64,000 nt of DNA from an uncultured Actinomycetota bacterium (lineage in GTDB: Bacteria; Actinomycetota; Actinomycetes; Mycobacteriales; Jatrophihabitantaceae): assembly GCA_963839995.1 (NCBI GenBank), contig CAWIXH010000011.1, positions 6,152-70,151 on the forward strand, read 5' to 3'. Made by a program: the position numbers and the translations under genes. Positions within the stretch are counted from its first letter, which is position 1. Each line of letters begins with the position of its first letter. Below, one piece after another: positions 1,703 through 34,947 of the stretch. The notes under the pieces are model-generated. The model did no database searches. It was not told where the DNA came from and saw only the letters and a program-made list of their open reading frames with translations.

Positions 1703-2321
1703 GTGGAGGACTTCGGCCACCTGTTGCAGGGCAGGCCGCTCGGTGTAGTGACGCCGGCGTCGGCGCGAGAGGTTGCCGAGATCATCGGCGCGGCCAACGC
1801 GTCCCGCGGAAGTTGGCAATCCGCGGGACCGGGCACAGCGCCGGCGCGCAGTCGCTGCCGCTCGACTCAACCGTCGTGGACCTGTCCGGGATGAACGCCG
1901 CGGTCGGCGTCGACGGTAAGGGCAGGACCATCCGATGCCAGACAGGAGCCACGCCACGGCAGCTGGTAGCCCACACGTGCCCGCCGGCCTGGTCCCGCGC
2001 CCGGTCACGAATTTGCTTGATCTCTCGGTGGGCGGTGTGCTCGGCGTCGGCCCTGAATCCGACGATCTCGCCTTCTTCAGCGTCATGTACCCGCACATGC
2101 CGCCCCAGCTGTTACCCGAAGCCCTAGATGCCCACACACGGGCAAGCGATCTGCTGACCCGGGCAGGCGGCAAACGCTACGGACCCGACTGGATGGGCGA
2201 GGTCGACCACGACGGATGGCGTACGCACTTCGGCCGGGCCCACGAGGGCTGGATAAACGCACGCCGCACCTTCGACCCGAACTGTATCTTCCGTTCAACG
2301 CTGGTCCCCAACGCCGACTGA
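1703..2321 (+). pseudogene. FAD-binding (PCMH / FAD_binding_4 type) oxidase remnant: 5'-truncated, frameshifted and internally deleted
   Basis: Recognisable pieces lie in three frames: GRPLGVVTPASAREVAEIIGAANAS, then KLAIRGTGHSAGAQSLPLDSTVVDLSGMNAAVGVDGKGRTIRCQTGAT, then the C-terminus GKRYGPDWMGEVDHDGWRTHFGRAHEGWINARRTFDPNCIFRS. Confidence 0.55.
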
Positions 2322-2828
2322 CGCGGGGCGCAACCCGTCGGCAGCGCCGGGCGCTGTACCACGCGCCTCCCATCCAACCCGCCGCAACTGACGGCAAGCG
2401 CAGGTGCCTCAGACTCGCGCAGGGCCAGGACGCCCAGGAATCTGCTCACCGGACGCCGCCGCCGGCCAGCGCTGCTTGCGATAACCCGCTCGCGGCGCCC
2501 GCCAGCCGCACATAATGACGTCATCACGGACGTGCGGCAATCGTTATACCGCGCGCCCGATTCGCAGGGAGGATCTATGTCGTGCTTCCGGCCCTGCCTC
2601 CCGGGTTTCGACGAGCTGGGTGCGTAGGGTCGGCGGCCTGGGTCCCGGCCTGACCTCCGATTCGGCTGACGCCGCTTCGTGCTGTCCTGCGAGACGATCT
2701 GTCGGCCGGGCCCAGGTCTTGTGGCACCACCGGTGGTGCCGGTCTGATCTGCCCGTCCTGTGCAAGAGGCCGGGGTCGCCAGATCCGACGGCCGGCGGGT
2801 GCGTGCCATCCCTCAACCAGAGAAAGGG

Positions 2829-3875
2829 ATGACGTTGACCATCGTAGAGACGCGCGCGGTCACCGGCGGGGTGGACACCCATGCCGACGTGCATGTCGCC
2901 GCGGCGCTGGATCCGCTCGGCGGGCTGCTCGGCGTCGAACAGTTCCCCACCACCCCGGCCGGCTACGCCGGCTTGCTGGACTGGCTGGGCGAGTTCGGCA
3001 CCGTGGACCTGGTCGGGATCGAGGGCACCGGCAGCTACGGCGCCGGCCTGGCCCGCCACATCACCGCAGCCGGTGTCCGGGTCGTCGAGGTAGACCGCGC
3101 CGACCGGCAAGACCGCCGCCGGCAGGGCAAGTCAGACCCGCTGGACGCGGTCAGCGCCGCCCGGGCCGCGCAGTCCGGGCGGGCCCGCGGCGCCCCGAAA
3201 GGACGCGACGGCGCGGTCGAGGCGATCCGCGCGCTGATGCTCGCCAAACGCAGCGCCACCGGCGAACGCACCCGGGCCATCAACCAGGCCAGGGCACTGC
3301 TGCTGACCGGGCCCGACGAGCTGCGCACCCGGCTGGCCGGGCACTCCGCGGCGAGCCTGGTCGCCGAGATCGCCGCGCTGCGTCCCCGCCCGGGCGAGCT
3401 GGTCGGCTATGCCACCCGCATCGCGCTGCGCGAGCTGGGCCGCCGCGTCGCCTTCCTCGACGCCCAGCTCGAGCGCCTCGACGACCAGATCGTGCCGCTG
3501 GTCACCGCCCGCGCCCCCGGCCTGCTCGCCCGCCACGGCATCGGGCCACACACCGCCGCGCTGCTGCTCATCACTGCCGGCGACCACCCCGAACGGCTGC
3601 GCAGCGAGGCCGCCTGGGCGCACCTGTGCGCCGCCGCCCCCATCCCGGCATCCTCCGGCAAGATCACCCGGCACCGGCTCAACCCCGGCGGCGACCGGCA
3701 AGCCAACCACGCCCTGTGGCGCATCGTGCTCACCCGGATGCGCTCACACCCGCCGACCCGCGACTACGCCGAACGCCGCACCAAACAAGGAAAGTCCAAG
3801 ACCGAGATCATCCGCTGCCTCAAGCGCTACGTCGCCCGCGAGGTCTACCCGCACCTACGCCCCGCACGCGACTGA
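2829..3875 (+). CDS. IS110-family transposase (DEDD N-terminal domain plus Transposase_20 C-terminal domain)
   Basis: Motifs seen: MTLTIVETRAVTGGVDTHADVHVAAALDPLG...VGIEGTGSYGAGLARHI...GIGPHTAALLLITAGDHPERLRSEAAWAHLCAAAPIPASSGKITRHRLNPGGDRQANHALWRIV. I placed the start at the ATG at 2829. The element ends could not be defined (IS110 elements lack clear inverted repeats). Confidence 0.9.
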   Translation: MTLTIVETRAVTGGVDTHADVHVAAALDPLGGLLGVEQFPTTPAGYAGLLDWLGEFGTVDLVGIEGTGSYGAGLARHITAAGVRVVEVDRADRQDRRRQGKSDPLDAVSAARAAQSGRARGAPKGRDGAVEAIRALMLAKRSATGERTRAINQARALLLTGPDELRTRLAGHSAASLVAEIAALRPRPGELVGYATRIALRELGRRVAFLDAQLERLDDQIVPLVTARAPGLLARHGIGPHTAALLLITAGDHPERLRSEAAWAHLCAAAPIPASSGKITRHRLNPGGDRQANHALWRIVLTRMRSHPPTRDYAERRTKQGKSKTEIIRCLKRYVAREVYPHLRPARD

Positions 3876-4224
3876 CACAGACCCCCGGGGCGGGCCTGAC
3901 CCACGATTCGGCTGCCGCACCCGCTGGCCTTCGAACGATCCGTCGGCCCCGCCCCGGGCCTCCACCACCCCGGCTGCGCGTGACCTCATAAGAGCCTGCC
4001 CTCCACACCGGAGCGGCCCGTCCCTGTCCTGTCCGCAACCCAGCCGACCCGACCCGAACGACCCCCAGCAGCGCCCGCAGAAAGCGAGACGACGAAATGT
4101 CACCAGAGCGCTTGACAAACCATAGGAGCATCGATCGTGTCGGAGTTCGCCGTGAAGCGTTGTGGATCACCGTTCCCGGGCCGTGGTCGGCAGAGTGCGG
4201 TGCCGCTACGGGCGGTTCTCGTGG

Positions 4225-12540: not shown

Positions 12541-13270
12541 ATGAGCGAACTGTTCGTGGCGCTCAACCCGGACACACCGATTCGCGCGGTTGCCGTACTT
12601 GCTGCGGCTCCCGCTCGGTGACGGGATGATCTTCCGCACGTCCGGGACCTGGTAGCCCACCAAAGCTCTCTACTGCTATCCGGTCGGCGCCGAGGAGTGG
12701 CCGGCCGAGCCGAAGATCGTCGAACGCGTTCCGGTGCGCTCCTGCGCCCGACGCGGCGCCGCGATCGACCTGGTGCTCGACCGTGGTCGGAAGAATCGCT
12801 GACAGATCGTGTTCACCACCGCTCGCGGCCGCGACGCGGTGTTCTGGCAATCGCCACGCACCCGAAAGCAAGCCCGCCCGAACGTCACCACGCCGGCGGC
12901 TCGCGCCGCCGGCATCGCCAAGCTCGACATCCTCGTCGACACCCGCGAGCAGTACGGCTACCGCTTCCCCACCCAGCAGGTCGCCACCGTTAAGCGGGCG
13001 CTGCCCTGCGGCGACTACGGCATCAGCATCGACGGCCGACTCGTCGCGGCGGTGGAGCGCAAGTCACTGCCCGACCTCGTCTCCAGCCTGCTCAACGGCA
13101 AACTGCGCGCAGCGGTCGTGGTCGAGGACCACTACTCGCAGATCTCCAAACTCAACTGGGTGCGGCCCGTGCTCGTCGCCGACGGCATCGCCGAACTGCA
13201 GGTGCGCTGGCCCAACGTGCCGATCGCCTTCGCCGAGACCCGACAACTGGCCGAGGAATGGACCTACCGT
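12541..13270 (+). pseudogene. ERCC4-nuclease-domain gene, 5' part: frameshift near 12575, in-frame TAG at 12653 and TGA at 12800, then cut by the RIT element
   Basis: MSELFVALNPDT (ATG 12541), then LPYLLRLPLGDGMIFRTSGTW*PTKALYCYPVGAEEWPAEPKIVERVPVRSCARRGAAIDLVLDRGRKNR*QIVFTTARGRD...LVDTREQYGYRF...GDYGI...AVERKSLPDLVSSL...AEEWTYR. Confidence 0.75.
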
Positions 13271-13376
13271 TATTACTCCGATTCCCGGGTTATTCCGATG
13301 TCGGCTCCTTCGCGCGTGTGATGGGCCTGCTGGGCTGGGATGACGGACTCGCGGAGCTGGCGCCTGTCGGAATAAA
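13271..13376. repeat. RIT left terminal inverted repeat (106 bp)
   Basis: tattactccgattcccgggttattccgatgtcgg...cctgtcggaataa matches the reverse complement of 20651-20756 with 3 mismatches by manual alignment. It holds TTATTCCGA and its inverse about 70 bp apart. Confidence 0.85.
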
Positions 13377-13472
13377 CCAGAGCGTCGGTTGCTCGCCTGG
13401 GACTTCTTCCCTGATTTTCTGCGCCCATGGTGATGGTGCCGCCATGTCCGTCCGGACCGGCGGTTCACCGGA

Positions 13473-15504: not shown

Positions 15505-16409
15505 ACACCCGCCGGGAGGCTGCGGACAGCTTCTACCGGCACCTTCGCCAGTGGTTCACCGCGTTCCTTCCCCGCCAGCGCGGCGCAGCCGACAACACGA
15601 TCACCTCGTGCCGCCAGACCTGGAACATGCTGTTGGGCTACGTCGCCGGACATCACCACGTCGCAATCGAGAAGGTCACGTTCACGATGGTCGACCGGGT
15701 CACCGTCACCGGGTTCCTCGACCACATGCGGAGCACGAGGTCGTGGACGGCCACGACCTGCAACCAGCGCCTGGCATGCATCCGGTCGTTCTTCGCCTAC
15801 GCGGCGTCCGCCGAGCCGTCCCTCGCGATCTATCTCGCCGATCTCGCCGCCATCCCGAGGCTCAAAGGCCCAGCCGCGGCACCCGTGAAATACATGAGCA
15901 CCGACGCGGTCGCGGCGCTGCTCGCCGTCCCGGACCCGGGCACCCGGATCGGGCTGCGCGATCAGTTCTTCATGATCCTCATGTATGACCTGGCTGCCCG
16001 CGACGCCGAGATGCTCGCCATGAACCTCGCCGACATCGACACCAGGCGGCTCACCGTGGACCTGCTCGGGAAAGGCTCCAAACCAAGGCGTCTCCCCATC
16101 ACCAGCGAGACCGCCCAGCACTTCGGCCGCTACACCGCCGTGTTCCACCCCAGCCCGGAACCGGCGACCCCGATGTTCTACACCGTCCGTAGTCATCGTC
16201 TGACCCGGATGTCCGACGACAACGTCGCCAGGTTCATGCGCCAGCACGCCGCCACCGCCAAGACGAGATGTCCCGACATCCCTACCCGGGTCCACCCGCA
16301 CATGCTCAGGCACTCGCGGGCGATGCATCTCTACCGAGCCGGCATGCCCCTGGCCCTGCTCACCGAGTGGCTCGGGCACGCCGACCCCGAGACCACGCTC
16401 ATCTACGCG
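15501..16409 (+). pseudogene. ritC: RitC-type tyrosine recombinase, 5' 303 codons, interrupted after ...LGHADPETTLIYA
   Basis: GTG at 15501 overlaps the ritB TGA. As it stands the ORF runs into the inserted element and ends at 16472 with the tail NPRELHQMHDPNSALRQLVA. Confidence 0.85.
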
Positions 16410-16422
16410 AACCCTCGGGAAT

Positions 16423-16544
16423 TGCATCAGATGCATGATCCGAATTCGGCACTCCGGCAGTTGGTCGCCTGAAACACGTCTCGCGCCTGCTGGATATTCG
16501 GGCTTCGGGAGTGTCGGCTTGATCGTTTGATCCCGTCTGATGCA
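16423..16544. repeat. Left-end inverted TGCATCAGA / TCTGATGCA sites (candidate recombinase-binding sites)
   Basis: ttgcatcagatgcatgatc lies at 16422-16440 and gatcccgtctgatgcaggat at 16529-16548. Both blocks are conserved in the diverged sister copy, whereas the spacer between them is not. Confidence 0.5.
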
Positions 16545-17690
16545 GGATATGCCCACCAACTGGAGCTGGGGGTCGCGTTGCGGCGGGTGGGTTTGGCGGG
16601 CGCGGCGAGCGCCGAGCTGGTCGACGGGGTTCGGCAGCTGCGGCCGGAGGATGCGATGGTCGAGGCGATGTTGCGGGGCTGGCAGGCGCAGCAGGTAGCG
16701 CGTGGCCTGCGCGCGGAGACCGTCGGTTACCGGCAGCGGCTGGTGCGCCGGTTCATGGCCTTCACCAACGAGTACCCGTGGCAGTGGCGGCCGGGGCACG
16801 TGGACGAGTGGACGTTGATGTTGACCGCGGAGCGGCATCTGGCGGCGTCGACGATCCGTAACTACCAGACCGAGCTGCGGTTGTTCAGCGAGTACGTGTG
16901 CGACGGACGGTATGGCTGGGCGGCCGCGTGCGAGACGGAGTTCGGGCCGGGGGTGCATCCGGTACCGATCTGCCACGAGTGGAACACGATCACGCACCTG
17001 AACGAGTACGAGGGCGACCCGGAGGCCCGGCCGTTCACCCGGGCCGAACTGCAACGCTTTCTGGACTACGCCGATGAGCAGGTCGACCGGGCGGCGCAGG
17101 CCAGACGTAAGGGCGCGTTGGCGGCCTACCGGGACGCCACGCTGTTCAAGGTGGTCTACGGGTGGGGACTGCGGCGCACCGAGACCTCGAAGCTGGATCT
17201 GGCCGACTGGGGCCGCAACCCGGCTGCGCCGGAGTTCGGCCGGTTCGGGATGCTGCACGTCCGCTACGGCAAGGCGGTGCGCGGCCAGCCACCCCGGCGG
17301 CGCAACGTGCCCTCGGTGTTCGGCTGGGCAGTGGAGGCGGTGAGCGATTACGTCGAGAACATCAGGCCCCGTTTCGGGGCGGTAGATCATCCGGCGTTGT
17401 GGGTCACCGAACGCGGTGGCCGGATCAAACCCGCAGAGATCAACGCCCGGTTCGTTGCCTACCGTGATGCGCTCGGGCTGCCCCGCGAGCTGACGCCCCA
17501 TTCGCTCAGGCACTCGTTCGTGACCCACCTTACGGAGAACGGGGCCGACCGCCGGTTCATCCAGGAGGCCGTCGGACATCGCTGTGACACGTCCACGGCG
17601 ATCTATACCCACGTGTCCGGGGACTTCATGAACACCGCGCTGCGCAAGGCACTCACCCCGGCCTTCGAGCCAGATGCCCAGGTTCGGTAA
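16527..17690 (+). CDS. Tyrosine integrase of the element (387 codons as listed; true start uncertain)
   Basis: RRTETSKLDL (Arg), HSLRHSFVTHL (HxxR) and VGHRCDTSTAIYTH (His..Tyr). Confidence 0.85.
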   Translation: MIPSDAGYAHQLELGVALRRVGLAGAASAELVDGVRQLRPEDAMVEAMLRGWQAQQVARGLRAETVGYRQRLVRRFMAFTNEYPWQWRPGHVDEWTLMLTAERHLAASTIRNYQTELRLFSEYVCDGRYGWAAACETEFGPGVHPVPICHEWNTITHLNEYEGDPEARPFTRAELQRFLDYADEQVDRAAQARRKGALAAYRDATLFKVVYGWGLRRTETSKLDLADWGRNPAAPEFGRFGMLHVRYGKAVRGQPPRRRNVPSVFGWAVEAVSDYVENIRPRFGAVDHPALWVTERGGRIKPAEINARFVAYRDALGLPRELTPHSLRHSFVTHLTENGADRRFIQEAVGHRCDTSTAIYTHVSGDFMNTALRKALTPAFEPDAQVR

Positions 17691-17699
17691 GGAGATTCG

Positions 17700-18026
17700 A
17701 TGACACGCAAACTGGATTACCGGTGGAACCTGCGGCAGGTAATGGCCACCCAGGGCATGTTCGCCACCACCGACCTGATCGACCCGCTCGCCGCTCGCGG
17801 GATCCGGCTGTCCTCCAGCCAGGTCTACCGGCTGGTCGTCGAGCGGCCGGAGCGGCTGAGCTTGAAGATCCTCATGGCGTTGCTGGACATCATGGACTGC
17901 TCGATGGACGAGCTGATCGAACCAGTCGCCGCTGGCTCGCCGGCCCGCAAGCGCCGTGCGGCCGGCGGCTCGGAGACCGGGATCGGGACGCTGCGCCCGA
18001 AGCCGGCGCGCATCACCCGCAGCTGA
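17700..18026 (+). CDS. Small Cro/C1-type HTH protein of the element
   Basis: MTRKLDYRWNLRQVMATQGMFATTDLIDPLAARGIRLSSSQVYRLVVERPERLSLKILMALLDIMDCSMDELIE. Confidence 0.75.
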   Translation: MTRKLDYRWNLRQVMATQGMFATTDLIDPLAARGIRLSSSQVYRLVVERPERLSLKILMALLDIMDCSMDELIEPVAAGSPARKRRAAGGSETGIGTLRPKPARITRS

Positions 18027-18029
18027 TCG

Positions 18030-20477
18030 ATGCCGACCAGCGTGATGGTGCCCGAGGTACTCGCCGACCCGATCGGTGTGGTCGTCGACATGGTCGCCGG
18101 CGCCGAGCCCGCGCTGGATCGCGCCGTCATCGAGCAGGCGGCCACCGAGGTCGCCGGCGGTCGGGCGAAGCGCCGCCGGCTCGCTCAGGCGCTGCTGGAG
18201 CGGCCCGCCGTGCTCACCGACGGCCGCTCGCCCGCCCCACGCGTTGTCGGTGACCTGCTGGTGAACCTGCGGACCGCGGGCGCGATGAGCATCGCGGCGC
18301 CGGTCTGCGCGGGCTGCGGCAAGCAGCTTCGTACGCTGCAGCGACGCGGAACCGACTGGTACTGCGCGGTTTGCAGCCCCCGGGCGACCGGGTGCGCTGC
18401 CTGTGGCCAGAACCGGATCGTGGTCACCCTCGACCGCGAGGGCCGGCCCCGCTGTTCGCGCTGCCCCGATGCCGATGGCCGGGATCCGTTGCTCACCCTG
18501 ATCACGGTGATCACGACCCTGGAACCGTCGCTGCCAGTCGAGGACATCACCACCGCTATCGGGCGCGTGTTCTCCAGGCCCAGCTATCTGCAGCGCCTGG
18601 CCTGGGCCATCGAGGACCGACCTGAGCTGCTCACCGGCCAAAGCGCGCAGGCACCGATGCACGGCGTGCTGCGGCTCATCGACGAACTTCGCGAGGCCGG
18701 CGCGCAAGCCATCATCCGACCGGCCTGCCCGCAGTGTCAGCGGATCGTACGACTGCACCGGCGCATCAACGGTCAATGGCACTGCCGCAACTGCCTGGCC
18801 AAGTCCCGCGCCCAGCCCTGCTCCCGCTGCGGTGTCATCCGCGAGGCGGCCGCCCGGGACGAGCATGGCCGGCCGCTGTGTCCCAACTGCCTGGTCGCCG
18901 AGCCCGCCAACCAGGAAACCTGTGTCGGATGCGGGCGACGTCGCCGGGTCCACACCCGCACTCCGGGCGGGCCGTCGTGTCAGGCATGCCGACCGATCAG
19001 CGTGGTGGACTGCTCGATCTGCGGCCGTCACGCGCCGGGCGTGATCTCCACCGCGACCGGGCAACCGTGGTGCTACGCCTGCAGCAAACGCCGGGCCCGC
19101 TGCGTCGGCTGCGGGGCCATACGGTTGGTGCGTGGCGGAAAGCTCGCCGCCCCGCTCTGCGCCACCTGCACCCGCCCTGACCCGTCGTTCTGGCACACCT
19201 GCCCCGGCTGCGGCGAACACACCGTGCACCGGCGACGCACCTGCGGCCGCTGCGCGCTTCGACAGCGGCTCGAGCAGCTGCTCGGCTGCGACGAGGACGG
19301 CGGTATCCACCCACGCCTGCGAGCGTTGCACGAACACCTCGCCGGCCACGAACGTCCAGACACCGTGCTGACCTGGCTCAACAAGGACAACGCGTCGGCG
19401 ATCTTGGGTGAACTCGCCACCGGGCAACGTCCACTGACCCACGCCGGGCTCGACGAACTGCCCGATTCCAAGCCGCTGCAGCACCTGCGCAGCGTCCTGG
19501 TTGCCGTCGGTGCACTGCCTGCCCGCGACGAGCAGATGACCCGACTCGAGAACTGGATCACGGCCACCATCACCGTGCGCGAGGACGCCGATGAACGACA
19601 ACTGCTGCACCGCTACGCCACCTGGCACGTGCTGCGCAGACTCCGGCGGCGGGTGCGCGAGGCCAGCACCACCAACGGGCAGGCCATCGCAGCTCGCCGC
19701 AAGATCACTGCCGCGATCGCCTTGCTCGACTGGCTGGAAACCCAGGACCGAACCCTGGCCACGGCCGGGCAAGGCGACCTCGATACCTGGCTGGCCAGCG
19801 GCACACGCTCGGCTACCGACGCGGGGAACTTCGTCCGCTGGGCTCGCAAGCAGAAACTCACCCGACTGGAGTTCGCCGCCACCCGATGGCACGGGCCGAC
19901 CGGCGTGATCGACACCGAGACCCGCTGGTCCCAGGCCCGCCGGCTCCTGCACGACGACACCCTCCAGCCCGAGGGCCGCGTCGCCGGGTTGCTCGTGCTC
20001 CTCTACGCGCAAACCGCGGCAGCGATCAGCCGGCTCACCCTCGACCACGTCCAGACCAGCAACAGCGAGACCCGCCTCCGACTCGGACGCGAACCCGTCA
20101 CCCTGCCCGAACCAGTCGACGCCCTGGTCCGGGAACTGGTCAACACTCGTCGCGGTCACGCTGTCCTCGGCGACCAAGGAACCTCACGGTGGCTGTTCCC
20201 CGGCGGCCGCCCCGGACACCCCATCAGCGCCGCCCGCCTCGCCGAACGACTCCGCGAACTCGGCATCCAGGCCGGGCCATCCCGCTCGGCCGCACTGTTC
20301 CAACTCGCCACCGACCTGCCCGCCGCCATGCTCGCCCGCATGCTCGGCATCCACATAGCCGTCGCCGCCACCTGGCAACGCGCCGCCGCCGGTGACTGGA
20401 CCAACTACGCCGCCGAGATCAGCCGACGACCAGCGTCCGCCCCGGCCGTCGAGCTGGTCGCCGATGATCAACAGTGA
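18030..20477 (+). CDS. 815-aa protein: eight CxxC..CxxC zinc-ribbon-like modules plus a C-terminal integrase-like domain
   Basis: CAGCGK..CAVC, CAACGQ..CSRC, CPQCQR..CRNC, CSRCGV..CPNC, CVGCGR..CQAC, CSICGR..CYAC, CVGCGA..CATC, CPGCGE..CGRC. The C-terminus reads ...AISRLTLDHV...PSRSAALFQLATDLPAAMLARMLGIHIAVAATW...WTNYAAE. Confidence 0.8.
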   Translation: MPTSVMVPEVLADPIGVVVDMVAGAEPALDRAVIEQAATEVAGGRAKRRRLAQALLERPAVLTDGRSPAPRVVGDLLVNLRTAGAMSIAAPVCAGCGKQLRTLQRRGTDWYCAVCSPRATGCAACGQNRIVVTLDREGRPRCSRCPDADGRDPLLTLITVITTLEPSLPVEDITTAIGRVFSRPSYLQRLAWAIEDRPELLTGQSAQAPMHGVLRLIDELREAGAQAIIRPACPQCQRIVRLHRRINGQWHCRNCLAKSRAQPCSRCGVIREAAARDEHGRPLCPNCLVAEPANQETCVGCGRRRRVHTRTPGGPSCQACRPISVVDCSICGRHAPGVISTATGQPWCYACSKRRARCVGCGAIRLVRGGKLAAPLCATCTRPDPSFWHTCPGCGEHTVHRRRTCGRCALRQRLEQLLGCDEDGGIHPRLRALHEHLAGHERPDTVLTWLNKDNASAILGELATGQRPLTHAGLDELPDSKPLQHLRSVLVAVGALPARDEQMTRLENWITATITVREDADERQLLHRYATWHVLRRLRRRVREASTTNGQAIAARRKITAAIALLDWLETQDRTLATAGQGDLDTWLASGTRSATDAGNFVRWARKQKLTRLEFAATRWHGPTGVIDTETRWSQARRLLHDDTLQPEGRVAGLLVLLYAQTAAAISRLTLDHVQTSNSETRLRLGREPVTLPEPVDALVRELVNTRRGHAVLGDQGTSRWLFPGGRPGHPISAARLAERLRELGIQAGPSRSAALFQLATDLPAAMLARMLGIHIAVAATWQRAAAGDWTNYAAEISRRPASAPAVELVADDQQ

Positions 20478-20515
20478 AGGTATTCAGACAGTTGGAAAAC
20501 CTGACTCCGCCAGAG

Positions 20516-20641
20516 AACGCCGACACCGAGATGAAACGCCATGCCCTCGAAAAGGCAAACAGCACCGGCCCGCAACCCCCTCCGGCCCCGTTGTGGCACA
20601 ACCGCGAGGACATCATCCAGCGCTTGTGCGGACTCAAGTAG
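20516..20641 (+). pseudogene. ritC: RitC 3' remainder (41 codons plus stop)
   Basis: NADTEMKRHALEKANSTGPQPPPAPLWHNREDIIQRLCGLK* follows directly on ...TTLIYA in the same codon phase. Confidence 0.8.
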
Positions 20642-20650
20642 TGACACCGG

Positions 20651-20756
20651 CTTATTCCGACAGGCGCCAGCCACGCGAGCCCGTCATCCCAGCCCAGCAG
20701 GCCCATCACACGCGCGAAGGAGCCGACATCGGAATAACCCGGGAATCGGAGTAATA
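20651..20756. repeat. RIT right terminal inverted repeat (106 bp)
   Basis: It is the reverse complement of 13271-13376, with 3 mismatches. Confidence 0.85.
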
Positions 20757-20786
20757 CCAGTTATTCCGAGATCGGAATAACTGGTA
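20755..20786. repeat. 14-bp-stem palindrome at the outer right edge of the RIT element
   Basis: taccagttattccg agat cggaataactggta. It holds two more TTATTCCGA-type 9-mers and has no counterpart at the left end. Confidence 0.85.
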
Positions 20787-27404: not shown

Positions 27405-27584
27405 TCCGTATTCGGCGTTGTGCCGACGTCTTATCCGGCGTTTTCAAGATCATTATCTCTGAGGTCCCGGAGTTTGGCGGCTCGATCTCTTGCGTACGCG
27501 TCCGTAAGAGATCGCGGTCAGCGCTGCAGGCAGGCGGTCGGGAGCCCGGGTCGGAGGTTGGCACGATGAACGTTTCGACGTCGG

Positions 27585-27752
27585 TCAGGCTTGCTGGGGC
27601 AGCGAGCGACGGCCGAGCCGCCGGCGCAGTTCGGGGTTCTCGCCGTGGGCGGCCTCCAGCGCCTGGTTGAGGCTGCGGATCTCGTCGCGGTGGCGGCGTT
27701 TGAGCTCGGCGAGTTGGGCGGTGAGGGTGCGCGTCGGGGTTACCGCGCATCA
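27585..27752 (-). pseudogene. Possible remnant of the small coiled-coil third gene of a Tn554-like trio
   Basis: TLTAQLAELKRRHRDEIRSLNQALEAAHGENPELRRRLGRRS follows the TnpB-like stop. The ATG overlapping that stop is in another frame. This call is weak. Confidence 0.25.
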
Positions 27753-28236
27753 GTCGTGCTCCTGCTTGTCGGCGAGGGCGTCGGTGCGAGCCTCGACCCC
27801 GGCGCCGCGGATCGCCCGCGCGCTGCCGTCGGCGAGGCGGGTGTGTTCGAGGGTGAGGATGACGCGGCCGAGTGCATCGTGTTCCTGGCGTCGTCCGGCC
27901 AGCCACACGTTGTCCTCGCTCATCTCCCGCCCGGTGCGGGCAAGGAACACAGCGTTACGTTCGGTGATCAGGTTTGCGGTGCGGTCGAGCTGGGTGCGCA
28001 GCTCGGGAAGGAAGCTGGCGTCGGTGGCGAACTTGTCACAGGTCAGGCACGAGTTGCCCTTCTGACAGACCTGGCGGGGTGGCAGCAGACACCAGCCGTT
28101 GGGCAGGATCCGGTCAGTGCGCCGGTCCAGTTCGAGCATGTCGTAGAGGTCTCGTGGGTCGATGTCCAGGTCGCGGGCGTCAGCGGTGATCTTGCGATAG
28201 CGCAGGAACTCCGCCTCGGCGGTGGACTGCAGCGTC
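27750..28236 (-). pseudogene. Tn554 TnpB-like tyrosine recombinase, 3' part (post-tyrosine extension with a Cys motif)
   Basis: TLQSTAEAEFLRYRKITADARDL...ILPNGWCLLPPRQVCQKGNSCLTCDKFATDASFLPELRTQLDRTANLI. It starts directly at the right end of element copy 2. Confidence 0.55.
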
Positions 28237-28274
28237 CTCTGGCGGAGTCAGGTTTTCCAACTGTCTGAATACCT

Positions 28275-30722
28275 TCACTGTTGATCATCGGCGACCAGCT
28301 CGACGGCCGGGGCGGACGCTGGTCGTCGGCTGATCTCGGCGGCGTAGTTGGTCCAGTCACCGGCGGCGGCGCGTTGCCAGGTGGCGGCGACGGCTATGTG
28401 GATGCCGAGCATGCGGGCGAGCATGGCGGCGGGCAGGTCGGTGGCGAGTTGGAACAGTGCGGCCGAGCGGGATGGCCCGGCCTGGATGCCGAGTTCGCGG
28501 AGTCGTTCGGCGAGGCGGGCGGCGCTGATGGGGTGTCCGGGGCGGCCGCCGGGGAACAGCCACCGTGAGGTTCCTTGGTCGCCGAGGACAGCGTGACCGC
28601 GACGAGTGTTGACCAGTTCCCGGACCAGGGCGTCGACTGGTTCGGGCAGGGTGACGGGTTCGCGTCCGAGTCGGAGGCGGGTCTCGCTGTTGCTGGTCTG
28701 GACGTGGTCGAGGGTGAGCCGGCTGATCGCTGCCGCGGTTTGCGCGTAGAGGAGCACGAGCAACCCGGCGACGCGGCCCTCGGGCTGGAGGGTGTCGTCG
28801 TGCAGGAGCCGGCGGGCCTGGGACCAGCGGGTCTCGGTGTCGATCACGCCGGTCGGCCCGTGCCATCGGGTGGCGGCGAACTCCAGTCGGGTGAGTTTCT
28901 GCTTGCGAGCCCAGCGGACGAAGTTCCCCGCGTCGGTAGCCGAGCGTGTGCCGCTGGCCAGCCAGGTATCGAGGTCGCCTTGCCCGGCCGTGGCCAGGGT
29001 TCGGTCCTGGGTTTCCAGCCAGTCGAGCAAGGCGATCGCGGCAGTGATCTTGCGGCGAGCTGCGATGGCCTGCCCGTTGGTGGTGCTGGCCTCGCGCACC
29101 CGCCGCCGGAGTCTGCGCAGCACGTGCCAGGTGGCGTAGCGGTGCAGCAGTTGTCGTTCATCGGCGTCCTCGCGCACGGTGATGGTGGCCGTGATCCAGT
29201 TCTCGAGTCGGGTCATCTGCTCGTCGCGGGCAGGCAGTGCACCGACGGCAACCAGGACGCTGCGCAGGTGCTGCAGCGGCTTGGAATCGGGCAGTTCGTC
29301 GAGCCCGGCGTGGGTCAGTGGACGTTGCCCGGTGGCGAGTTCACCCAAGATCGCCGACGCGTTGTCCTTGTTGAGCCAGGTCAGCACGGTGTCTGGACGT
29401 TCGTGGCCGGCGAGGTGTTCGTGCAACGCTCGCAGGCGTGGGTGGATACCGCCGTCCTCGTCGCAGCCGAGCAGCTGCTCGAGCCGCTGTCGAAGCGCGC
29501 AGCGGCCGCAGGTGCGTCGCCGGTGCACGGTGTGTTCGCCGCAGCCGGGGCAGGTGTGCCAGAACGACGGGTCAGGGCGGGTGCAGGTGGCGCAGAGCGG
29601 GGCGGCGAGCTTTCCGCCACGCACCAACCGTATGGCCCCGCAGCCGACGCAGCGGGCCCGGCGTTTGCTGCAGGCGTAGCACCACGGTTGCCCGGTCGCG
29701 GTGGAGATCACGCCCGGCGCGTGACGGCCGCAGATCGAGCAGTCCACCACGCTGATCGGTCGGCATGCCTGACACGACGGCCCGCCCGGAGTGCGGGTGT
29801 GGACCCGGCGACGTCGCCCGCATCCGACACAGGTTTCCTGGTTGGCGGGCTCGGCGACCAGGCAGTTGGGACACAGCGGCCGGCCATGCTCGTCCCGGGC
29901 GGCCGCCTCGCGGATGACACCGCAGCGGGAGCAGGGCTGGGCGCGGGACTTGGCCAGGCAGTTGCGGCAGTGCCATTGACCGTTGATGCGCCGGTGCAGT
30001 CGTACGATCCGCTGACACTGCGGGCAGGCCGGTCGGATGATGGCTTGCGCGCCGGCCTCGCGAAGTTCGTCGATGAGCCGCAGCACGCCGTGCATCGGTG
30101 CCTGCGCGCTTTGGCCGGTGAGCAGCTCAGGTCGGTCCTCGATGGCCCAGGCCAGGCGCTGCAGATAGCTGGGCCTGGAGAACACGCGCCCGATAGCGGT
30201 GGTGATGTCCTCGACTGGCAGCGACGGTTCCAGGGTCGTGATCACCGTGATCAGGGTGAGCAACGGATCCCGGCCATCGGCATCGGGGCAGCGCGAACAG
30301 CGGGGCCGGCCCTCGCGGTCGAGGGTGACCACGATCCGGTTCTGGCCACAGGCAGCGCACCCGGTCGCCCGGGGGCTGCAAACCGCGCAGTACCAGTCGG
30401 TTCCGCGTCGCTGCAGCGTACGAAGCTGCTTGCCGCAGCCCGCGCAGACCGGCGCCGCGATGCTCATCGCGCCCGCGGTCCGCAGGTTCACCAGCAGGTC
30501 ACCGACAACGCGTGGGGCGGGCGAGCGGCCGTCGGTGAGCACGGCGGGCCGCTCCAGCAGCGCCTGAGCGAGCCGGCGGCGCTTCGCCCGACCGCCGGCG
30601 ACCTCGGTGGCCGCCTGCTCGATGACGGCGCGATCCAGCGCGGGCTCGGCGCCGGCGACCATGTCGACGACCACACCGATCGGGTCGGCGAGTACCTCGG
30701 GCACCATCACGCTGGTCGGCAT
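28275..30722 (-). CDS. 815-aa zinc-ribbon-rich integrase-like protein (copy 2)
   Basis: The translation is identical to 18030-20477. Confidence 0.8.
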   Translation of the reverse strand: MPTSVMVPEVLADPIGVVVDMVAGAEPALDRAVIEQAATEVAGGRAKRRRLAQALLERPAVLTDGRSPAPRVVGDLLVNLRTAGAMSIAAPVCAGCGKQLRTLQRRGTDWYCAVCSPRATGCAACGQNRIVVTLDREGRPRCSRCPDADGRDPLLTLITVITTLEPSLPVEDITTAIGRVFSRPSYLQRLAWAIEDRPELLTGQSAQAPMHGVLRLIDELREAGAQAIIRPACPQCQRIVRLHRRINGQWHCRNCLAKSRAQPCSRCGVIREAAARDEHGRPLCPNCLVAEPANQETCVGCGRRRRVHTRTPGGPSCQACRPISVVDCSICGRHAPGVISTATGQPWCYACSKRRARCVGCGAIRLVRGGKLAAPLCATCTRPDPSFWHTCPGCGEHTVHRRRTCGRCALRQRLEQLLGCDEDGGIHPRLRALHEHLAGHERPDTVLTWLNKDNASAILGELATGQRPLTHAGLDELPDSKPLQHLRSVLVAVGALPARDEQMTRLENWITATITVREDADERQLLHRYATWHVLRRLRRRVREASTTNGQAIAARRKITAAIALLDWLETQDRTLATAGQGDLDTWLASGTRSATDAGNFVRWARKQKLTRLEFAATRWHGPTGVIDTETRWSQARRLLHDDTLQPEGRVAGLLVLLYAQTAAAISRLTLDHVQTSNSETRLRLGREPVTLPEPVDALVRELVNTRRGHAVLGDQGTSRWLFPGGRPGHPISAARLAERLRELGIQAGPSRSAALFQLATDLPAAMLARMLGIHIAVAATWQRAAAGDWTNYAAEISRRPASAPAVELVADDQQ

Positions 30723-30725
30723 CGA

Positions 30726-31052
30726 TCAGCTGCGGGTGATGCGCGCCGGCTTCGGGCGCAGCGTCCCGATCCCGGTCTCCGAGCCGCCGGCCGCACGGCG
30801 CTTGCGGGCCGGCGAGCCAGCGGCGACTGGTTCGATCAGCTCGTCCATCGAGCAGTCCATGATGTCCAGCAACGCCATGAGGATCTTCAAGCTCAGCCGC
30901 TCCGGCCGCTCGACGACCAGCCGGTAGACCTGGCTGGAGGACAGCCGGATCCCGCGAGCGGCGAGCGGGTCGATCAGGTCGGTGGTGGCGAACATGCCCT
31001 GGGTGGCCATTACCTGCCGCAGGTTCCACCGGTAATCCAGTTTGCGTGTCAT
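30726..31052 (-). CDS. Small HTH protein (copy 2)
   Basis: The translation is identical to 17700-18026. Confidence 0.75.
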   Translation of the reverse strand: MTRKLDYRWNLRQVMATQGMFATTDLIDPLAARGIRLSSSQVYRLVVERPERLSLKILMALLDIMDCSMDELIEPVAAGSPARKRRAAGGSETGIGTLRPKPARITRS

Positions 31053-31061
31053 CGAATCTCC

Positions 31062-32225
31062 TTACCGAACCTGGGCATCTGGCTCGAAGGCCGGGGTGAG
31101 TGCCTTGCGCAGCGCGGTGTTCATGAAGTCCCCGGACACGTGGGTATAGATCGCCGTGGACGTGTCACAGCGATGTCCGACGGCCTCCTGGATGAACCGG
31201 CGGTCGGCCCCGTTCTCCGTAAGGTGGGTCACGAACGAGTGCCTGAGCGAATGGGGCGTCAGCTCGCGGGGCAGCCCGAGCGCATCACGGTAGGCAACGA
31301 ACCGGGCGTTGATCTCTGCGGGTTTGATCCGGCCACCGCGTTCGGTGACCCACAACGCCGGATGATCTACCGCCCCGAAACGGGGCCTGATGTTCTCGAC
31401 GTAATCGCTCACCGCCTCCACTGCCCAGCCGAACACCGAGGGCACGTTGCGCCGCCGGGGTGGCTGGCCGCGCACCGCCTTGCCGTAGCGGACGTGCAGC
31501 ATCCCGAACCGGCCGAACTCCGGCGCAGCCGGGTTGCGGCCCCAGTCGGCCAGATCCAGCTTCGAGGTCTCGGTGCGCCGCAGTCCCCACCCGTAGACCA
31601 CCTTGAACAGCGTGGCGTCCCGGTAGGCCGCCAACGCGCCCTTACGTCTGGCCTGCGCCGCCCGGTCGACCTGCTCATCGGCGTAGTCCAGAAAGCGTTG
31701 CAGTTCGGCCCGGGTGAACGGCCGGGCCTCCGGGTCGCCCTCGTACTCGTTCAGGTGCGTGATCGTGTTCCACTCGTGGCAGATCGGTACCGGATGCACC
31801 CCCGGCCCGAACTCCGTCTCGCACGCGGCCGCCCAGCCATACCGTCCGTCGCACACGTACTCGCTGAACAACCGCAGCTCGGTCTGGTAGTTACGGATCG
31901 TCGACGCCGCCAGATGCCGCTCCGCGGTCAACATCAACGTCCACTCGTCCACGTGCCCCGGCCGCCACTGCCACGGGTACTCGTTGGTGAAGGCCATGAA
32001 CCGGCGCACCAGCCGCTGCCGGTAACCGACGGTCTCCGCGCGCAGGCCACGCGCTACCTGCTGCGCCTGCCAGCCCCGCAACATCGCCTCGACCATCGCA
32101 TCCTCCGGCCGCAGCTGCCGAACCCCGTCGACCAGCTCGGCGCTCGCCGCGCCCGCCAAACCCACCCGCCGCAACGCGACCCCCAGCTCCAGTTGGTGGG
32201 CATATCCTGCATCAGACGGGATCAA
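31062..32225 (-). CDS. Tyrosine integrase (copy 2)
   Basis: The translation is identical to 16527-17690. Confidence 0.85.
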   Translation of the reverse strand: MIPSDAGYAHQLELGVALRRVGLAGAASAELVDGVRQLRPEDAMVEAMLRGWQAQQVARGLRAETVGYRQRLVRRFMAFTNEYPWQWRPGHVDEWTLMLTAERHLAASTIRNYQTELRLFSEYVCDGRYGWAAACETEFGPGVHPVPICHEWNTITHLNEYEGDPEARPFTRAELQRFLDYADEQVDRAAQARRKGALAAYRDATLFKVVYGWGLRRTETSKLDLADWGRNPAAPEFGRFGMLHVRYGKAVRGQPPRRRNVPSVFGWAVEAVSDYVENIRPRFGAVDHPALWVTERGGRIKPAEINARFVAYRDALGLPRELTPHSLRHSFVTHLTENGADRRFIQEAVGHRCDTSTAIYTHVSGDFMNTALRKALTPAFEPDAQVR

Positions 32226-32342
32226 ACGATCAAGCCGACACTCCCGAAGCCCGAATATCCAGCAGGCGCGAGACGTGTTTCAGGCGACCAACTGCCGGAG
32301 TGCCGAATTCGGATCATGCATCTGATGCAATTCCCGAGGGTT

Positions 32343-33386
32343 GGTGTAGATCGCCGTCGAGGTGTCGCAGCGATGCCCGACCTGTTCTTGGATGAATCGG
32401 CGGTCCGCGCCGTCCTCGGTCAGGTGCGTGACATAGGAGTGGCGCAGCGAGTGCGGCGACAAATCACGCGGCAGGCCGAGTGCGTCGCGGTAGGCGACGA
32501 ACCGGGCGTTGATCTCCGCGGGCTTGACCCGCCCACCTCGCTCAGTGATCCACAACGCCGGATGATCCACGGCACCGAACCGAGGCCGGACGTTGTCGAC
32601 GTAGTCGGCGACCGCCTCCACCGCCCAGCCCATCACCGAAGCGACGTTGCGCCGACGGGGCGGTTGGCCGCGCACCGCCTTGCCGTAGCGCACGTGCAGC
32701 ATCCCGAACCGGCCGAACTCCGCCGCTGCCGGGTTGCGGCCCCAATCGGCCAGGTCCAGCTTCGCGGTCTCGGTGCGCCGCAGCCCCCAGCCATAGATCA
32801 CCTTGAACAACGTCGCGTCCCGGTAGGCGGCCAGCGCACCCTTGCGCTTGGCCCGTGCCGCTCGCTCGACCTGCTCGTCGGCGTAGTCCAGGAACCGTTG
32901 CAGCTCCTCGCGCGAGAGCGGCCGGGCCTCCGGGCTGCCCTCGTACTCGTTCAGGTGCGCGATGGTGTTCCACTCATGACAGATCGGCACCGGGAACTGC
33001 CCGAACGCCTCCTCACACGCGCTTGCCCAGCCATAGCGGGCATCGGTGAGGTACTCACTGAACAGACGAAGATCGGTCTGGTAGCCGCGGATCGTCGCCG
33101 GCGCCAGATGCCGTTCGGCGGTCAACGTCAACGTCCACTCGTCCACGTGACCAGGACCCCACTGCCAGGGAAACTCGTTGGTAAACACGACGAACGCTCG
33201 CACCAACCGCTCCCGGGGATCGATAGTCGACGCGCGCAGCCCACGGGCAGTCTGCTGCGCCCGCCAGCCGCGCAGCATCGCCTCCACCATCGCCTCTTCC
33301 GGCCGCAGTTGGACGACGCCGTCCATCAACTCAGCGGTCGCCGCACCCGCCAAACCCACCCGCTGCAACCTGCCTCCCATCGCCAA
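32343..33386 (-). pseudogene. Sister-element integrase, interrupted after ...VGHRCDTSTAIYT by copy 2
   Basis: MAMGGRLQRVGLAGAATAELMDGVVQLRPEEAMVEAMLRGW...HSLRHSYVTHLTEDGADRRFIQEQVGHRCDTSTAIYT, then the element tail NPRELHQMHDPNSALRQLVA* (stop at 32280). Confidence 0.85.
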
Positions 33387-33536
33387 GTGACGGGCGTATC
33401 CTGCATCAGACGGGATCAGCCGATCAACGCGACGCGCCGCATCCCTTCCCCGATCGTTGATCCAGGACTTCGTTCAACCCGCCAACTCTCGGAAAGACCA
33501 ATTCGGATCATGCATCTGATGCAATTCCCGAGGGTT
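32343..33536 (-). mobile_element. Diverged sister element: left end plus the 5' 348 codons of its integrase only
   Basis: It has the same 37-nt tip (aaccctcgggaattgcatcagatgcatgatccgaatt) and the same 22-nt internal site, with a diverged spacer. Its integrase is clearly homologous but not identical to the 387-aa Int. Confidence 0.8.
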
Positions 33537-33899
33537 TGCGTAGACCATGCTCATCGTCGGCGTCAGGTGCCCGAGGTAGCGCTGCAGGACCTGAATCGGC
33601 ACGCCGTTATTGAGCAGGTTGGTGGCGACCGTGTGCCGGAAACGGTGGGTGCGGTTGAAGTCGACGAGCGTGCCGGTGCCGTCGCGCACTTCCAGCCGGG
33701 CGGCCAGCTTGCTCAGCGCCTGCCGCAGGCTGTTACCGGAGTAGGGCCTGTCGCCGTTGCGGTTCATCAACGGCGCGAGGAACAGGTACTTCGGCATGAC
33801 GCCCGGAGCGCCGTGTTCGGCAAAGTACCGCGCCGCCCACTGCTGCTGTTCGCGGATGATCGCGACGATCTCTGCGTGCACGAGGATCGAGTTCGGCGA
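33537..33899 (-). pseudogene. Tn554 TnpB-like tyrosine recombinase, internal fragment ending ...LGHLTPTMSMVYA
   Basis: SPNSILVHAEIVAIIREQQQWAARYF...THRFRHTVATNLLNNGVPIQVLQRYLGHLTPTMSMVYA, then the sister-element tail NPRELHQMHDPNWSFRELAG* (stop at 33474). The N-terminal half of the gene is absent. Confidence 0.6.
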
Positions 33900-33995
33900 T
33901 CAGGGCAGGTGTCGGGATCGGTGAGCCGCGCCCGTCCGCCGGCGTTGCCATCGCCGGTGGTTGCGGTGTCGGCGCTTCCACGCTGGGGATGCCGG

Positions 33996-34947
33996 TCATT
34001 GCGCCTGACCCAATCGGCTGGTGACCTGCAGGAACCACGACTCGAGTGAAGTGTTGACGGGCTGGAGTCGGTAGACGGAGATCCCGCCGCTGACCAGCGC
34101 GCGCGATCGTCGCGATGACATCGCGCGACGTGTCGGCAGGCAGGCTGATAGCCAAACCACCGCCATCGATGGTGACGGTCACGAGCAAGTTCGCAGCGTC
34201 GACGAGGGCGCTCGCCCGGTCGGGATCGGAGCACTCGACCTGCAACCTGACGGCCGTCCCGGCCAGCAGCTCGGTGATCGGCCCCTGCCGGATCACGTTG
34301 CCGCGGTCCACGATCGCGACCGCGTCGCAGGTGCGCTCGACCTCGTCCAGCAGGTGCGAGGACAACACGACCGTGCGTCCCTCGGCGACCAGCGAGCGGA
34401 TCATGTCGCGCATCTCCTGCATACCGGCGGGATCGAGGCCGTTCATCGGCTCATCCAAGATCAACAACTGCGGGTCGCCGATGAGGCACGCTGCGACACC
34501 CAGCCGCTGCCGCATGCCCATCGAGTACGTCGACACCCGGTCCTCGGCCCGGTGCAAGATCCCCACGCGCTCCAAGGACGCGTCGATGCGGCCACGAGCC
34601 GCGGGCTCTCGTGCCGCCGCGAGCACCTGCAGATTCTCCCGGCCGGTCAGGTGACCGTGGAAGCGCGGCTCGTCGACGATGGCCGCCACCCGAGCCAGCG
34701 CCAGATCGCGATGCGCGGGAACGGCGTAGCCGAGCAGCGACATCGACCCCGCGTCCGCGTGCGTGAGCCCGAGCAACACGCGGATCAACGTCGTCTTACC
34801 CGCGCCGTTCGGGCCGAGATAACCGAACGCACAGCCGCGTGGGATACGCAGGTCCACGTTGTTGACCGCGACGTTGTCGCCGAACCGCTTCGTCAACCCG
34901 TGTGCCTCGACCGCCCACCGACCGTCGGAGGCCACCACCGCCGTCAT
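33996..34947 (-). pseudogene. ABC-2-type ABC transporter ATP-binding protein, frameshift in a GC-repeat near 34096-34106
   Basis: Walker A GPNGAGKTT, signature YSMGMRQRLG, Walker B LLILDEP. The C-terminus ALVSGGISVYRLQPVNTSLESWFLQVTSRLGQAQ* is in the next frame. Confidence 0.75.

What the first reader, a model, noticed from the sequence alone, without database searches (positions are those of the whole stretch)
27750..28290. Right end of copy 2 is fused to the 3' half of the outermost recombinase gene: the rest of the sister element is missing without a scar
The two right junctions are ...ctgactccgccagag|aacgccgac for copy 1 (20501-20524) and ...ctgactccgccagag|gacgctgcagtcc for copy 2 (minus strand, 28251-28224).

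The copy 2 flank translates as TLQSTAEAEFLRYRKITADARDL...NGWCLLPPRQVCQKGNSCLTCDKFATDASFLPEL. This is not the HVSGDFMNTALRKAL tail expected for the sister int. It is a plausible continuation of the TnpB-like gene that was broken at ...MVYA (33537).

The sister element's int 3' end, HTH gene, large gene and right end have therefore vanished exactly up to an element end. The simplest reading is site-specific recombination between two directly repeated right ends, or replacement of one element by another at a shared end. Either would be indirect evidence that the ends are active recombination sites.
Basis: inference. Interest (0 to 1): 0.6.

Follow-up and report, generated by a model that had tools for sequence, protein, structure and literature searches.

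The report
Nested recombinase-hunting transposon lost outer half
A 4.1-kb jumping gene sits inside the integrase gene of a related jumping gene, which sits inside a third element's recombinase gene. The middle element has lost its right-hand 2.9 kb exactly at an element end, so the inner element now abuts the outermost gene; this is a tidy rearrangement, not a new kind of system.

Summary
Copy 2 of the element (E, window 28237-32342, minus strand) is identical to copy 1 over all 4,106 nt. Its right end abuts DNA that an intact 739-aa paralogue in the same genome shows to be residues 579-739 of a Tn554-related long recombinase. The fragment ending MVYA at 33537 matches residues 457-577. Only Glu578 separates the two pieces, and two of its three bases (GA) are missing, so there is a small scar.

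The sister element keeps only its left 1,194 nt; about 2,910 nt are gone. The expected precursor exists. A metagenome contig (L169) carries E, 99.97% identical, followed directly by the sister's integrase tail, HTH gene, large gene and right end. At least ten other full-size nests elsewhere are intact. A second end-fused nest lies at the start of contig C15 of this genome.

Most likely (0.45), E inserted into the sister's integrase gene and the two identical, directly repeated right ends then recombined. The main rival (0.3) is that the stub plus E moved into the recombinase gene as one composite unit. Mis-assembly is unlikely.

Earlier notes of this scan, on this same window only, already described the element and its target rule. 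Interest is moderate.

The parts
27750..28236 (-). 3' piece of the outermost gene, the long tyrosine recombinase of a Tn554-related transposon remnant. It corresponds to residues 579-739 of the intact paralogue plus the last base of codon 578, with the stop at 27750-27752.
   Evidence: Alignment A1 gives 86% identity. tblastn E-value is 4e-83. DNA junction read.
28237..32342 (-). Element E, copy 2 (4,106 nt): integrase of 387 aa, HTH_26 protein of 108 aa, and an 815-aa zinc-ribbon-rich protein. The right end is at 28237 and the left end at 32342.
   Evidence: Identical to copy 1. Pfam results. The same ends occur in all five genomic copies.
32343..33536 (-). Left 1,194 nt of the sister element: its left end plus its integrase gene up to ..AIYT. 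It is cut by E one codon after the catalytic Tyr. The resulting ORF (32280-33386) ends in a tail encoded by E's left end.
   Evidence: 80% identity to E and 98.8% to the full sister at C15 1179-5279. Alignment. Pfam PF00589.
33537..33899 (-). 5' piece of the outermost long recombinase gene (residues 457-577, ending ..MSMVYA). It is itself cut off upstream at about 33896-33900, where an ABC-transporter region begins.
   Evidence: Alignment A1 gives 83% identity. blastn to C8 141723-142074. Sequence.
27412..27749 (-). Remnant of the third gene of the Tn554-related element (DUF6262 / TnpC-like in the paralogue). About 252 nt present in the paralogue just after the recombinase stop are absent here.
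   Evidence: blastn segments: query 1-499 matches C8 142090-142588 and query 501-820 matches C8 142841-143153. DUF6262 found in the paralogue.
16410..20515 (+). Element E, copy 1, the reference for the ends. It is cleanly inserted in ritC of a RIT element (IYA|NADTEMKR).
   Evidence: The RIT inverted repeats at 13266-13378 and 20649-20761 bracket it.

Best explanation
This is a three-deep nest that has been pruned at an element end. The proposed order of events is as follows.

1. A sister element (about 4.1 kb, 74-80% identical to E) inserted one codon after the catalytic Tyr of the long recombinase gene of a Tn554-related transposon.
2. E inserted at the equivalent position of the sister's own integrase gene.
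3. The two right ends then lay as direct repeats 2.9 kb apart with identical 15-nt termini (CTGACTCCGCCAGAG). Recombination between them removed the sister's integrase 3' end, HTH gene, large gene and right end, presumably as a circle that was lost.

I favour a reaction catalysed by the element's tyrosine recombinase on the two right ends, about 2:1 over a short-homology event.

Shown: the anatomy, the contiguity of the two outer halves, the precision to within 2 nt, and the existence of the intact precursor elsewhere. Inferred: the order of events and the enzyme. The missing GA is taken to be a later slip in GAGGAGA or an assembly error.
For: - The two halves of the outer gene are adjacent in the intact paralogue.
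- The boundaries of the missing DNA coincide with E's right end on one side and, within 2 nt, with where the sister's right end must have been. By my estimate, two random endpoints would do this with a probability of order 1e-6.
- The precursor is real. L169 carries E (99.97% identical) followed directly by sister nt 1192-4101 (99.83%), with the HVSGDF.. tail, HTH gene, large gene and right end.
- Insertion of family members into sister integrase genes is common and precise. Intact nests: L053 and L083; L086, L087, L100/L143, L104, L113 and L122, plus miniature derivatives; L160 and L161.
- In the four independent intact nests where both right ends are visible (L113, L100/L143, the L088 group, L161), the inner and outer termini differ (..GCCGTTA against ..GCCAGAG..GCCAGTA or ..ACCAGTC). 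The two end-fused nests (window, and C15) involve partners with the same terminus. Tyrosine recombinases generally need matching crossover regions (established knowledge).
- Copy 2 is pure E up to its last base. E and the sister share longer exact runs further left (26, 23 and 20 nt). The exchange therefore did not use the best homology, which argues for an end-directed process.
- No orphan right part is present in the assembly, as expected if the deleted circle was lost.
Against: - L169 is an intact nest with identical right termini, so resolution is not obligatory.
- Recombination between two right ends is not the normal site pairing (left with right) for such elements, and no enzyme data exist.
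- A conservative site-specific exchange should not lose 2 nt.
- The sample is small: 4 intact nests against 2 fused, Fisher p about 0.07 by my own arithmetic.
- The window sister's own right end is gone, so its identity to E's terminus is inferred from the C15 and L169 sisters.
- The C15 case can be explained by ordinary homologous deletion between near-identical 2.9-kb repeats, so it is weak support for an end-specific reaction.
Confidence: 0.45

Rival explanations
1. Composite transposition. In an intact E-in-sister nest at another locus, or in another cell of the community, excision paired the sister's left end with E's right end. The resulting 5.3-kb circle (sister stub plus E) then inserted as one unit after the Tyr+1 codon of the long recombinase gene. 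On this reading the full sister was never at this locus and nothing was deleted here.
For: - Every step is an ordinary reaction of the element: a left end pairing with a right end, then insertion at the usual target.
- The first 37 nt of the sister's and E's left ends are identical, so E's integrase should recognise both.
- A donor-type nest exists in a related community (L169). The mobile elements of that assembly are 99.8-100% identical to those of this genome, while the backbones do not match.
- Both flanks are halves of one target, as for a single insertion.
Against: - No second copy of the stub-plus-E unit was found in this genome. The exact stub-fusion protein is not on record in the collection.
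- No leftover right part of a donor is present in the assembly.
- Insertions of this family are precise in all intact nests, so the 2-nt deficit is unexplained here too.
- It does not predict the link between shared right termini and fused nests.
Confidence: 0.3
2. Tandem array followed by intramolecular integration. E and the sister first sat head to tail at the same Tyr site. This could arise by a second insertion at the occupied site's left junction, or by a circle recombining with a resident right end. The internal right-end|left-end joint mimics the circle junction. It then recombined with the sister's own integrase target 1.2 kb upstream, deleting the sister's right 2.9 kb.
For: - The conserved part of the target (..TCTAC NNN) lies to the left of the cut, while right flanks are variable. 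An occupied site therefore keeps its recognisable half.
- The final step is the element's normal integration reaction and gives exactly the observed order of parts.
Against: - No right-end|left-end joint was found in 182 sequences totalling 5.5 Mb, which include about 170 related loci and this genome.
- This route needs more steps than the alternatives.
Confidence: 0.08
3. Assembly artefact. The real genome holds the full nest, and the assembler skipped the sister's right part or joined two genomes through the repeated element.
For: - E is a 4.1-kb repeat with five identical copies in this genome, and identical copies occur in other organisms of the same kind of sample.
- The assembly has 23 contigs.
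- Small indels between copies and a contig (C15) that starts inside a stub point to long-read errors.
Against: - Skipping would need a false overlap between E's right part and the sister's right part. These are only 55-77% identical per 250-nt window and share just 15 terminal nt.
- Copy 2 is a perfect E with no mixed bases.
- The left junctions (recombinase|stub and stub|E) are unique sequences.
- The present orientation of the 7.7-kb segment keeps the RIT element and its inverted repeats intact.
Confidence: 0.04

Closest known systems
Actinobacterial Tn554-related transposons: a short tyrosine recombinase, an abnormally long one, and TnpC (Van Houdt et al. 2012, PMC3414803)
   Same: The outermost broken gene is the long recombinase of such a unit. 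The intact paralogue on C8 has a 450-aa recombinase, a 739-aa recombinase whose catalytic domain is C-terminal, and a DUF6262 gene.
   Different: In the window only residues 457-577 and 579-739 survive. The first recombinase gene is gone and the third gene carries a gap.
Deletion between directly repeated recombination sites or transposon ends, such as resolution between two res or dif-type sites, or non-canonical pairings of lambda att sites (my own knowledge, not tested here)
   Same: Two like ends lie in direct orientation. The intervening DNA is lost exactly from end to end, and one hybrid end remains.
   Different: The sites here are transposon right ends that normally pair with left ends. 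No enzyme assay exists. The junction is 2 nt short. An intact nest with the same termini also exists (L169).
Composite units formed when nested or neighbouring elements supply one end each, as known for IS-bounded composite transposons (my own knowledge)
   Same: The sister's left end and E's right end bracket a 5.3-kb unit that sits between the two halves of a single target.
   Different: This is a tyrosine-recombinase element, not a DDE element. Movement of the unit has not been seen, and only one copy is known.
The E family itself (integrase, HTH_26 protein, 815-aa zinc-ribbon protein; inserts one codon after the catalytic Tyr of tyrosine-recombinase genes), described by earlier notes of this scan on this window
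   Same: Copy 2 and the sister stub are members, with the same ends and the same target rule.
   Different: I found no published description in two literature searches. This finding concerns a rearranged nest, not the family's definition.

Membership tests
Tn554-related actinobacterial transposon (outermost gene) | Adjacent same-strand genes for a typical-size and an abnormally long (611-828 aa) tyrosine recombinase | tested here: met
   The paralogue L002 has a 450-aa and a 739-aa protein, both PF00589. The definition comes from PMC3414803. The window copy keeps only two fragments of the long gene.
Tn554-related actinobacterial transposon (outermost gene) | A third, TnpC-related small gene downstream | tested here: inconclusive
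   A DUF6262 gene follows the paralogue's long recombinase. I did not test its relation to Tn554 TnpC. The window copy lacks about 252 nt of this region.
E family (integrase / HTH_26 / large zinc-ribbon protein element) | Conserved left end (AACCCTCGGGAATTGCATCAG..) and right end (..ATTCAGACAGTT..CTGACTCCGCCAGAG) | tested here: met
   Copy 2 has both ends. The sister stub has the left end only.
E family (integrase / HTH_26 / large zinc-ribbon protein element) | Insertion exactly one codon after the catalytic Tyr codon of a tyrosine recombinase gene, with no loss or gain of target bases | tested here: met
   Left junctions MVYA| and AIYT|. Precise rejoining is seen in intact nests, AIYT|HVSGDF... 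The right junction of copy 2 belongs to a different gene and is 2 nt short.
Site-specific deletion between two like sites | Crossover at equivalent positions of both sites, conservative, no bases lost | tested here: inconclusive
   The product keeps a complete right end, but the flank lacks GA relative to the paralogue. The sister's own right junction no longer exists.
Site-specific deletion between two like sites | Dependence on the element's recombinase, and a reciprocal circular product | not testable with these tools
   No reads and no experiments are available. No orphan right part is in the assembly.

The most novel reading that the evidence does not exclude
The integrases of this family can recombine two right ends when their terminal bases match. 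Nests between siblings with the same right terminus would then prune themselves, leaving a stub plus a complete element that is itself a larger mobile unit. Diversification of the last 4-7 bases of the right end (..AGAG, ..GTTA, ..ATTA, ..AGTA) would then decide which relatives can coexist as stable nests.
Probability: 0.25. Interest if true: 0.55.

Novelty: new member of a known kind. Interest (0 to 1): 0.4.

Why it matters
The element family behind this finding attacks the active-site codon of other mobile elements' recombinase genes. Earlier notes of this scan flagged it as undescribed. This locus adds a natural record of what happens when such elements hit each other. It gives a dated series of states:
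- an intact nest in a related community (L169);
- a pruned nest here;
- a second pruned nest on contig C15.

It also yields a testable rule: nests are lost when the two right termini match. If an integrase-driven right-end by right-end reaction were shown, it would say where the crossover region of these elements lies. It would also show how sibling transposons disable and replace one another. If the stub plus E instead moved as one unit, the locus shows how new composite elements arise. Either way the finding itself is a rearrangement of an ordinary kind, so its value is as supporting evidence for end activity rather than as a new system.

Tried and rejected
- **Inversion between copies 1 and 2.** I considered this as the source of the mismatched flanks. 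Flipping the 7.7-kb segment would give RitC 5'|E|recombinase 3' and stub|E|RitC 3', which is worse, and it would break the RIT element. Rejected.
- **Homologous exchange with other E copies.** All other copies have matching flanks, so I rejected this as needing two occupied copies of the same recombinase gene.
- **Orthologous locus in relatives.** Of 40 relatives, only G001 (same genus) has a close match (90% identity). It corresponds to the intact C8 paralogue, and G001 carries only 66%-identical relatives of E. The ancestral state of this locus could not be seen.
- **Protein searches for nest-type integrases.** The whole-protein search gave none among the best 120 hits. The C-terminal region search gave five.
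- **Exact look-ups of window proteins.** The 135-aa, 368-aa and 109-aa proteins are not on record.
- **Haplotypes of the three sister left parts.** The two stubs share a variant of nt 57-173, but this does not discriminate between the pathways.
- **The 2-nt deficit as microhomology.** I looked for microhomology or a pseudo-target that would explain it as a single deletion event and found none at the breakpoints.
- **Literature.** Two searches found no description of the element or of such nests.
Full report
**Anatomy**

The window holds a 4,120-nt perfect-looking inverted repeat, 16401-20520 and 28232-32351. The two arms differ at only three positions (7, 9 and 4116), and all three lie in flanking DNA. 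The element proper (E) is therefore 4,106 nt, 16410-20515 and 28237-32342, and is identical in both copies.

E encodes three proteins:
- a 387-aa tyrosine recombinase (PF00589);
- a 108-aa HTH_26 protein;
- an 815-aa cysteine-rich protein with no Pfam family.

The genome (4.18 Mb, 23 contigs; the window is C11:6152-70151) has five E copies that are nearly identical. Each is inserted directly after TAC-NNN, the catalytic Tyr codon plus one, of a tyrosine recombinase gene. All have the same left end (AACCCTCGGGAATTGCATCAG..) and right end (..CTGACTCCGCCAGAG). Copy 1 sits cleanly in ritC of a RIT element bounded by 113-nt inverted repeats.

**Checking the observation**

On the minus strand, copy 2's right end at 28237 is followed by G ACG CTG CAG.., which reads TLQSTAEAEFLRYRK.. 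down to a stop at 27750. Copy 2's left end follows ..AIYT of a second, diverged integrase gene (32343-33536). That gene belongs to a sister element 80% identical to E, and only its left 1,194 nt are present. The stub's own left end follows ..MSMVYA of a recombinase fragment (33537-33899).

The same genome holds an intact paralogue of that outermost gene on contig C8 (L002:4353-6572, 739 aa). It reads ..MSMVYA-E-TLQSTAEAEF... The window fragments align to residues 457-577 (83% identity) and 579-739 (86%), with tblastn E-values of 3e-59 and 4e-83.

There is one correction. The paralogue DNA is TAC GCG GAG ACG CTG, and the window keeps only the G of the GAG codon. Two bases are missing, so the junction is not entirely scarless.

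**What the outermost gene is**

The paralogue lies after a 450-aa recombinase gene and before a DUF6262 gene. This is the layout of the actinobacterial Tn554-related transposons with one abnormally long recombinase, described by Van Houdt et al. (PMC3414803).

The window copy is a wreck:
- it starts at residue 457, next to ABC-transporter DNA;
- about 252 nt after its stop codon are missing.

**What is missing**

A full sister element lies on contig C15 (1179-5279, 4,101 nt), with integrase, HTH_26 and 809-aa genes. By comparison, the window's sister lacks about 2,910 nt: the integrase tail (HVSGDF..), the HTH gene, the large gene and the right end.

Genome-wide there are eight left ends but only six right ends. 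No right end is followed by a sister integrase tail, so no reciprocal or leftover product is present.

**A second case in the same genome**

Contig C15 begins inside another sister stub (nt 1-1170). A complete sister follows it. That sister's right end abuts, in frame, RVGEDRRRAAVD.., which is the 3' part of a different long-recombinase-type gene, followed by a DUF6262 gene. This is the same architecture. Here the inner and outer elements are near-identical, so ordinary homologous deletion between 2.9-kb direct repeats would be enough to explain it.

**Evidence from elsewhere**

I collected 80 loci with relatives of the integrase from genomes and 60 metagenome loci with an ..IYT|left-end junction. 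Further contigs came from exact protein look-ups.

Nests in sister integrase genes are common. In nearly all cases where the DNA after the inner right end is visible, the outer integrase tail follows exactly, and then the outer HTH and large genes. The intact nests are:
- L053 and L083;
- L086, L087, L100/L143, L104, L113 and L122, plus miniature 242-348-nt derivatives sitting in integrase genes;
- L160, and the complete three-level nest L161.

The most telling locus is L169, from ENA assembly ERZ25039533. It carries E (99.97% identical) followed directly by sister nt 1192-4101 (99.83% identical), including the sister's right end. This is the intact form of the very nest that is pruned in the window. 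It lies at another locus and in another host backbone; only mobile elements are shared with this genome.

One further candidate for an end-fused nest is L106, but its left side is cut by the contig end.

**Mechanism**

The missing DNA is bounded by E's right end on one side and, within 2 nt, by the position of the sister's right end on the other. This cannot be a random deletion. Three end-directed routes give the observed order of parts.

*Route 1 (favoured, 0.45).* E inserted into the sister's integrase gene, as in L169. The two directly repeated right ends, which share the terminal 15 nt, then recombined.
- In favour: copy 2 is pure E to its last base although longer exact runs (26, 23 and 20 nt) lie further left. 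In the four independent intact nests where both right ends are visible, the two termini differ (..GCCGTTA against ..GCCAGAG..GCCAGTA or ..ACCAGTC), whereas both fused nests pair like termini.
- Against: L169 is intact despite identical termini, the pairing of two right ends is non-canonical, and 2 nt are missing.

*Route 2 (0.3).* The stub plus E was excised from a nest elsewhere, using the sister's left end and E's right end, and inserted as a 5.3-kb unit.
- In favour: every step is an ordinary reaction, and a donor-type nest exists.
- Against: no second copy of the unit and no donor remnant was found.

*Route 3 (0.08).* A head-to-tail array formed first, and its internal joint then integrated into the sister's own integrase target. 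No such joint occurs in 5.5 Mb of related sequence.

*Mis-assembly (0.04)* is unlikely. E and the sister are only 55-77% identical across the missing part, copy 2 shows no mixed bases, and the present orientation keeps the RIT element intact.

**Comparison and novelty**

The outermost gene is a member of the Tn554-related actinobacterial group. The inner elements belong to the family that earlier notes of this scan described on this same window (target rule, three-deep nest). My own junction tables agree with those notes. Two literature searches found no published description of the family or of such nests.

The rearrangement itself, loss of DNA between like ends or movement of a composite unit, is of a known kind. 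The useful additions are these:
- proof that the two outer halves are contiguous;
- the 2-nt scar;
- the second fused nest;
- the intact precursor;
- the tentative link between matching right termini and pruning.

Noticed in passing
L088 6350-6641, L090 4383-4652, L095 561-834, L117 1810-2079, L129 5541-5782, L130 1777-2058, L142 843-1190: Miniature derivatives of the family, 242-348 nt, consist of a left end and a right end with no genes. They are inserted at the same Tyr+1 position of sister integrase genes, and the integrase tail continues exactly after them. They look like non-autonomous (MITE-like) members.
   Followed up: partly
G000 C15 1-5828 (L001): A second end-fused nest. The contig starts inside a sister stub. 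A full sister follows, and its right end abuts in frame the 3' part of another long-recombinase-type gene plus a DUF6262 gene. The stub has about 20 private differences, including 6 single-base indels and a destroyed Tyr codon. This reflects either old decay or a poorly polished contig end.
   Followed up: partly
G000 C15 1235-1351 (sister nt 57-173) compared with window 33364-33480: In nt 57-173 the full sister on C15 carries E-like bases at 11 of the 14 positions where the two stubs differ from it (the other three are single-base gaps). From nt 174 to 1193 it is identical to the window stub. The patch lies between exact runs of 37 and 24 nt, as expected for gene conversion between E and the sister.
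   Followed up: partly
L165-L169 and L160 (ENA ERZ25039533 contigs): Five contigs of another assembly carry E at 99.97-100% identity, together with other insertion elements 99.8-100% identical to copies in this genome. The surrounding genes have no match here. The mobile elements therefore seem to be shared between different hosts. L167 has the same flanks as the C8/C17 copies.
   Followed up: partly
L169 6589-6607; L106 4229 onward: In these two loci a right end is followed by ordinary DNA rather than a recombinase tail. In L169 it lies 17 nt upstream of a YjbR gene; in L106 it precedes an SRPBCC-type gene. Right ends may take part in other adjacent rearrangements.
   Followed up: no
right ends across L006-L169: The last 4-7 bases of the right end fall into discrete types (..GCCAGAG..GCCGTTA..GCCATTA..GCCAGTA..GCCAGAA and others), while the 25 nt before them are conserved. 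The ..GCCGTTA type is the usual inner partner in nests inside ..IYT integrase genes.
   Followed up: partly
window 33896-34000: Homology to the long recombinase starts abruptly at about 33896-33900, directly after the start of what looks like an ABC-transporter permease gene. The first recombinase gene and the first 456 codons of the long one are absent.
   Followed up: no
L161 3882-15300: A complete three-level nest. An outermost recombinase gene (..RLYT|) holds an element (right end ..GCCAGAG, with an APH-domain cargo gene). That element's integrase gene (..AIYT|) holds a further element (right end ..GCCGTTA, with two cargo ORFs). All tails continue exactly after each right end.
   Followed up: partly
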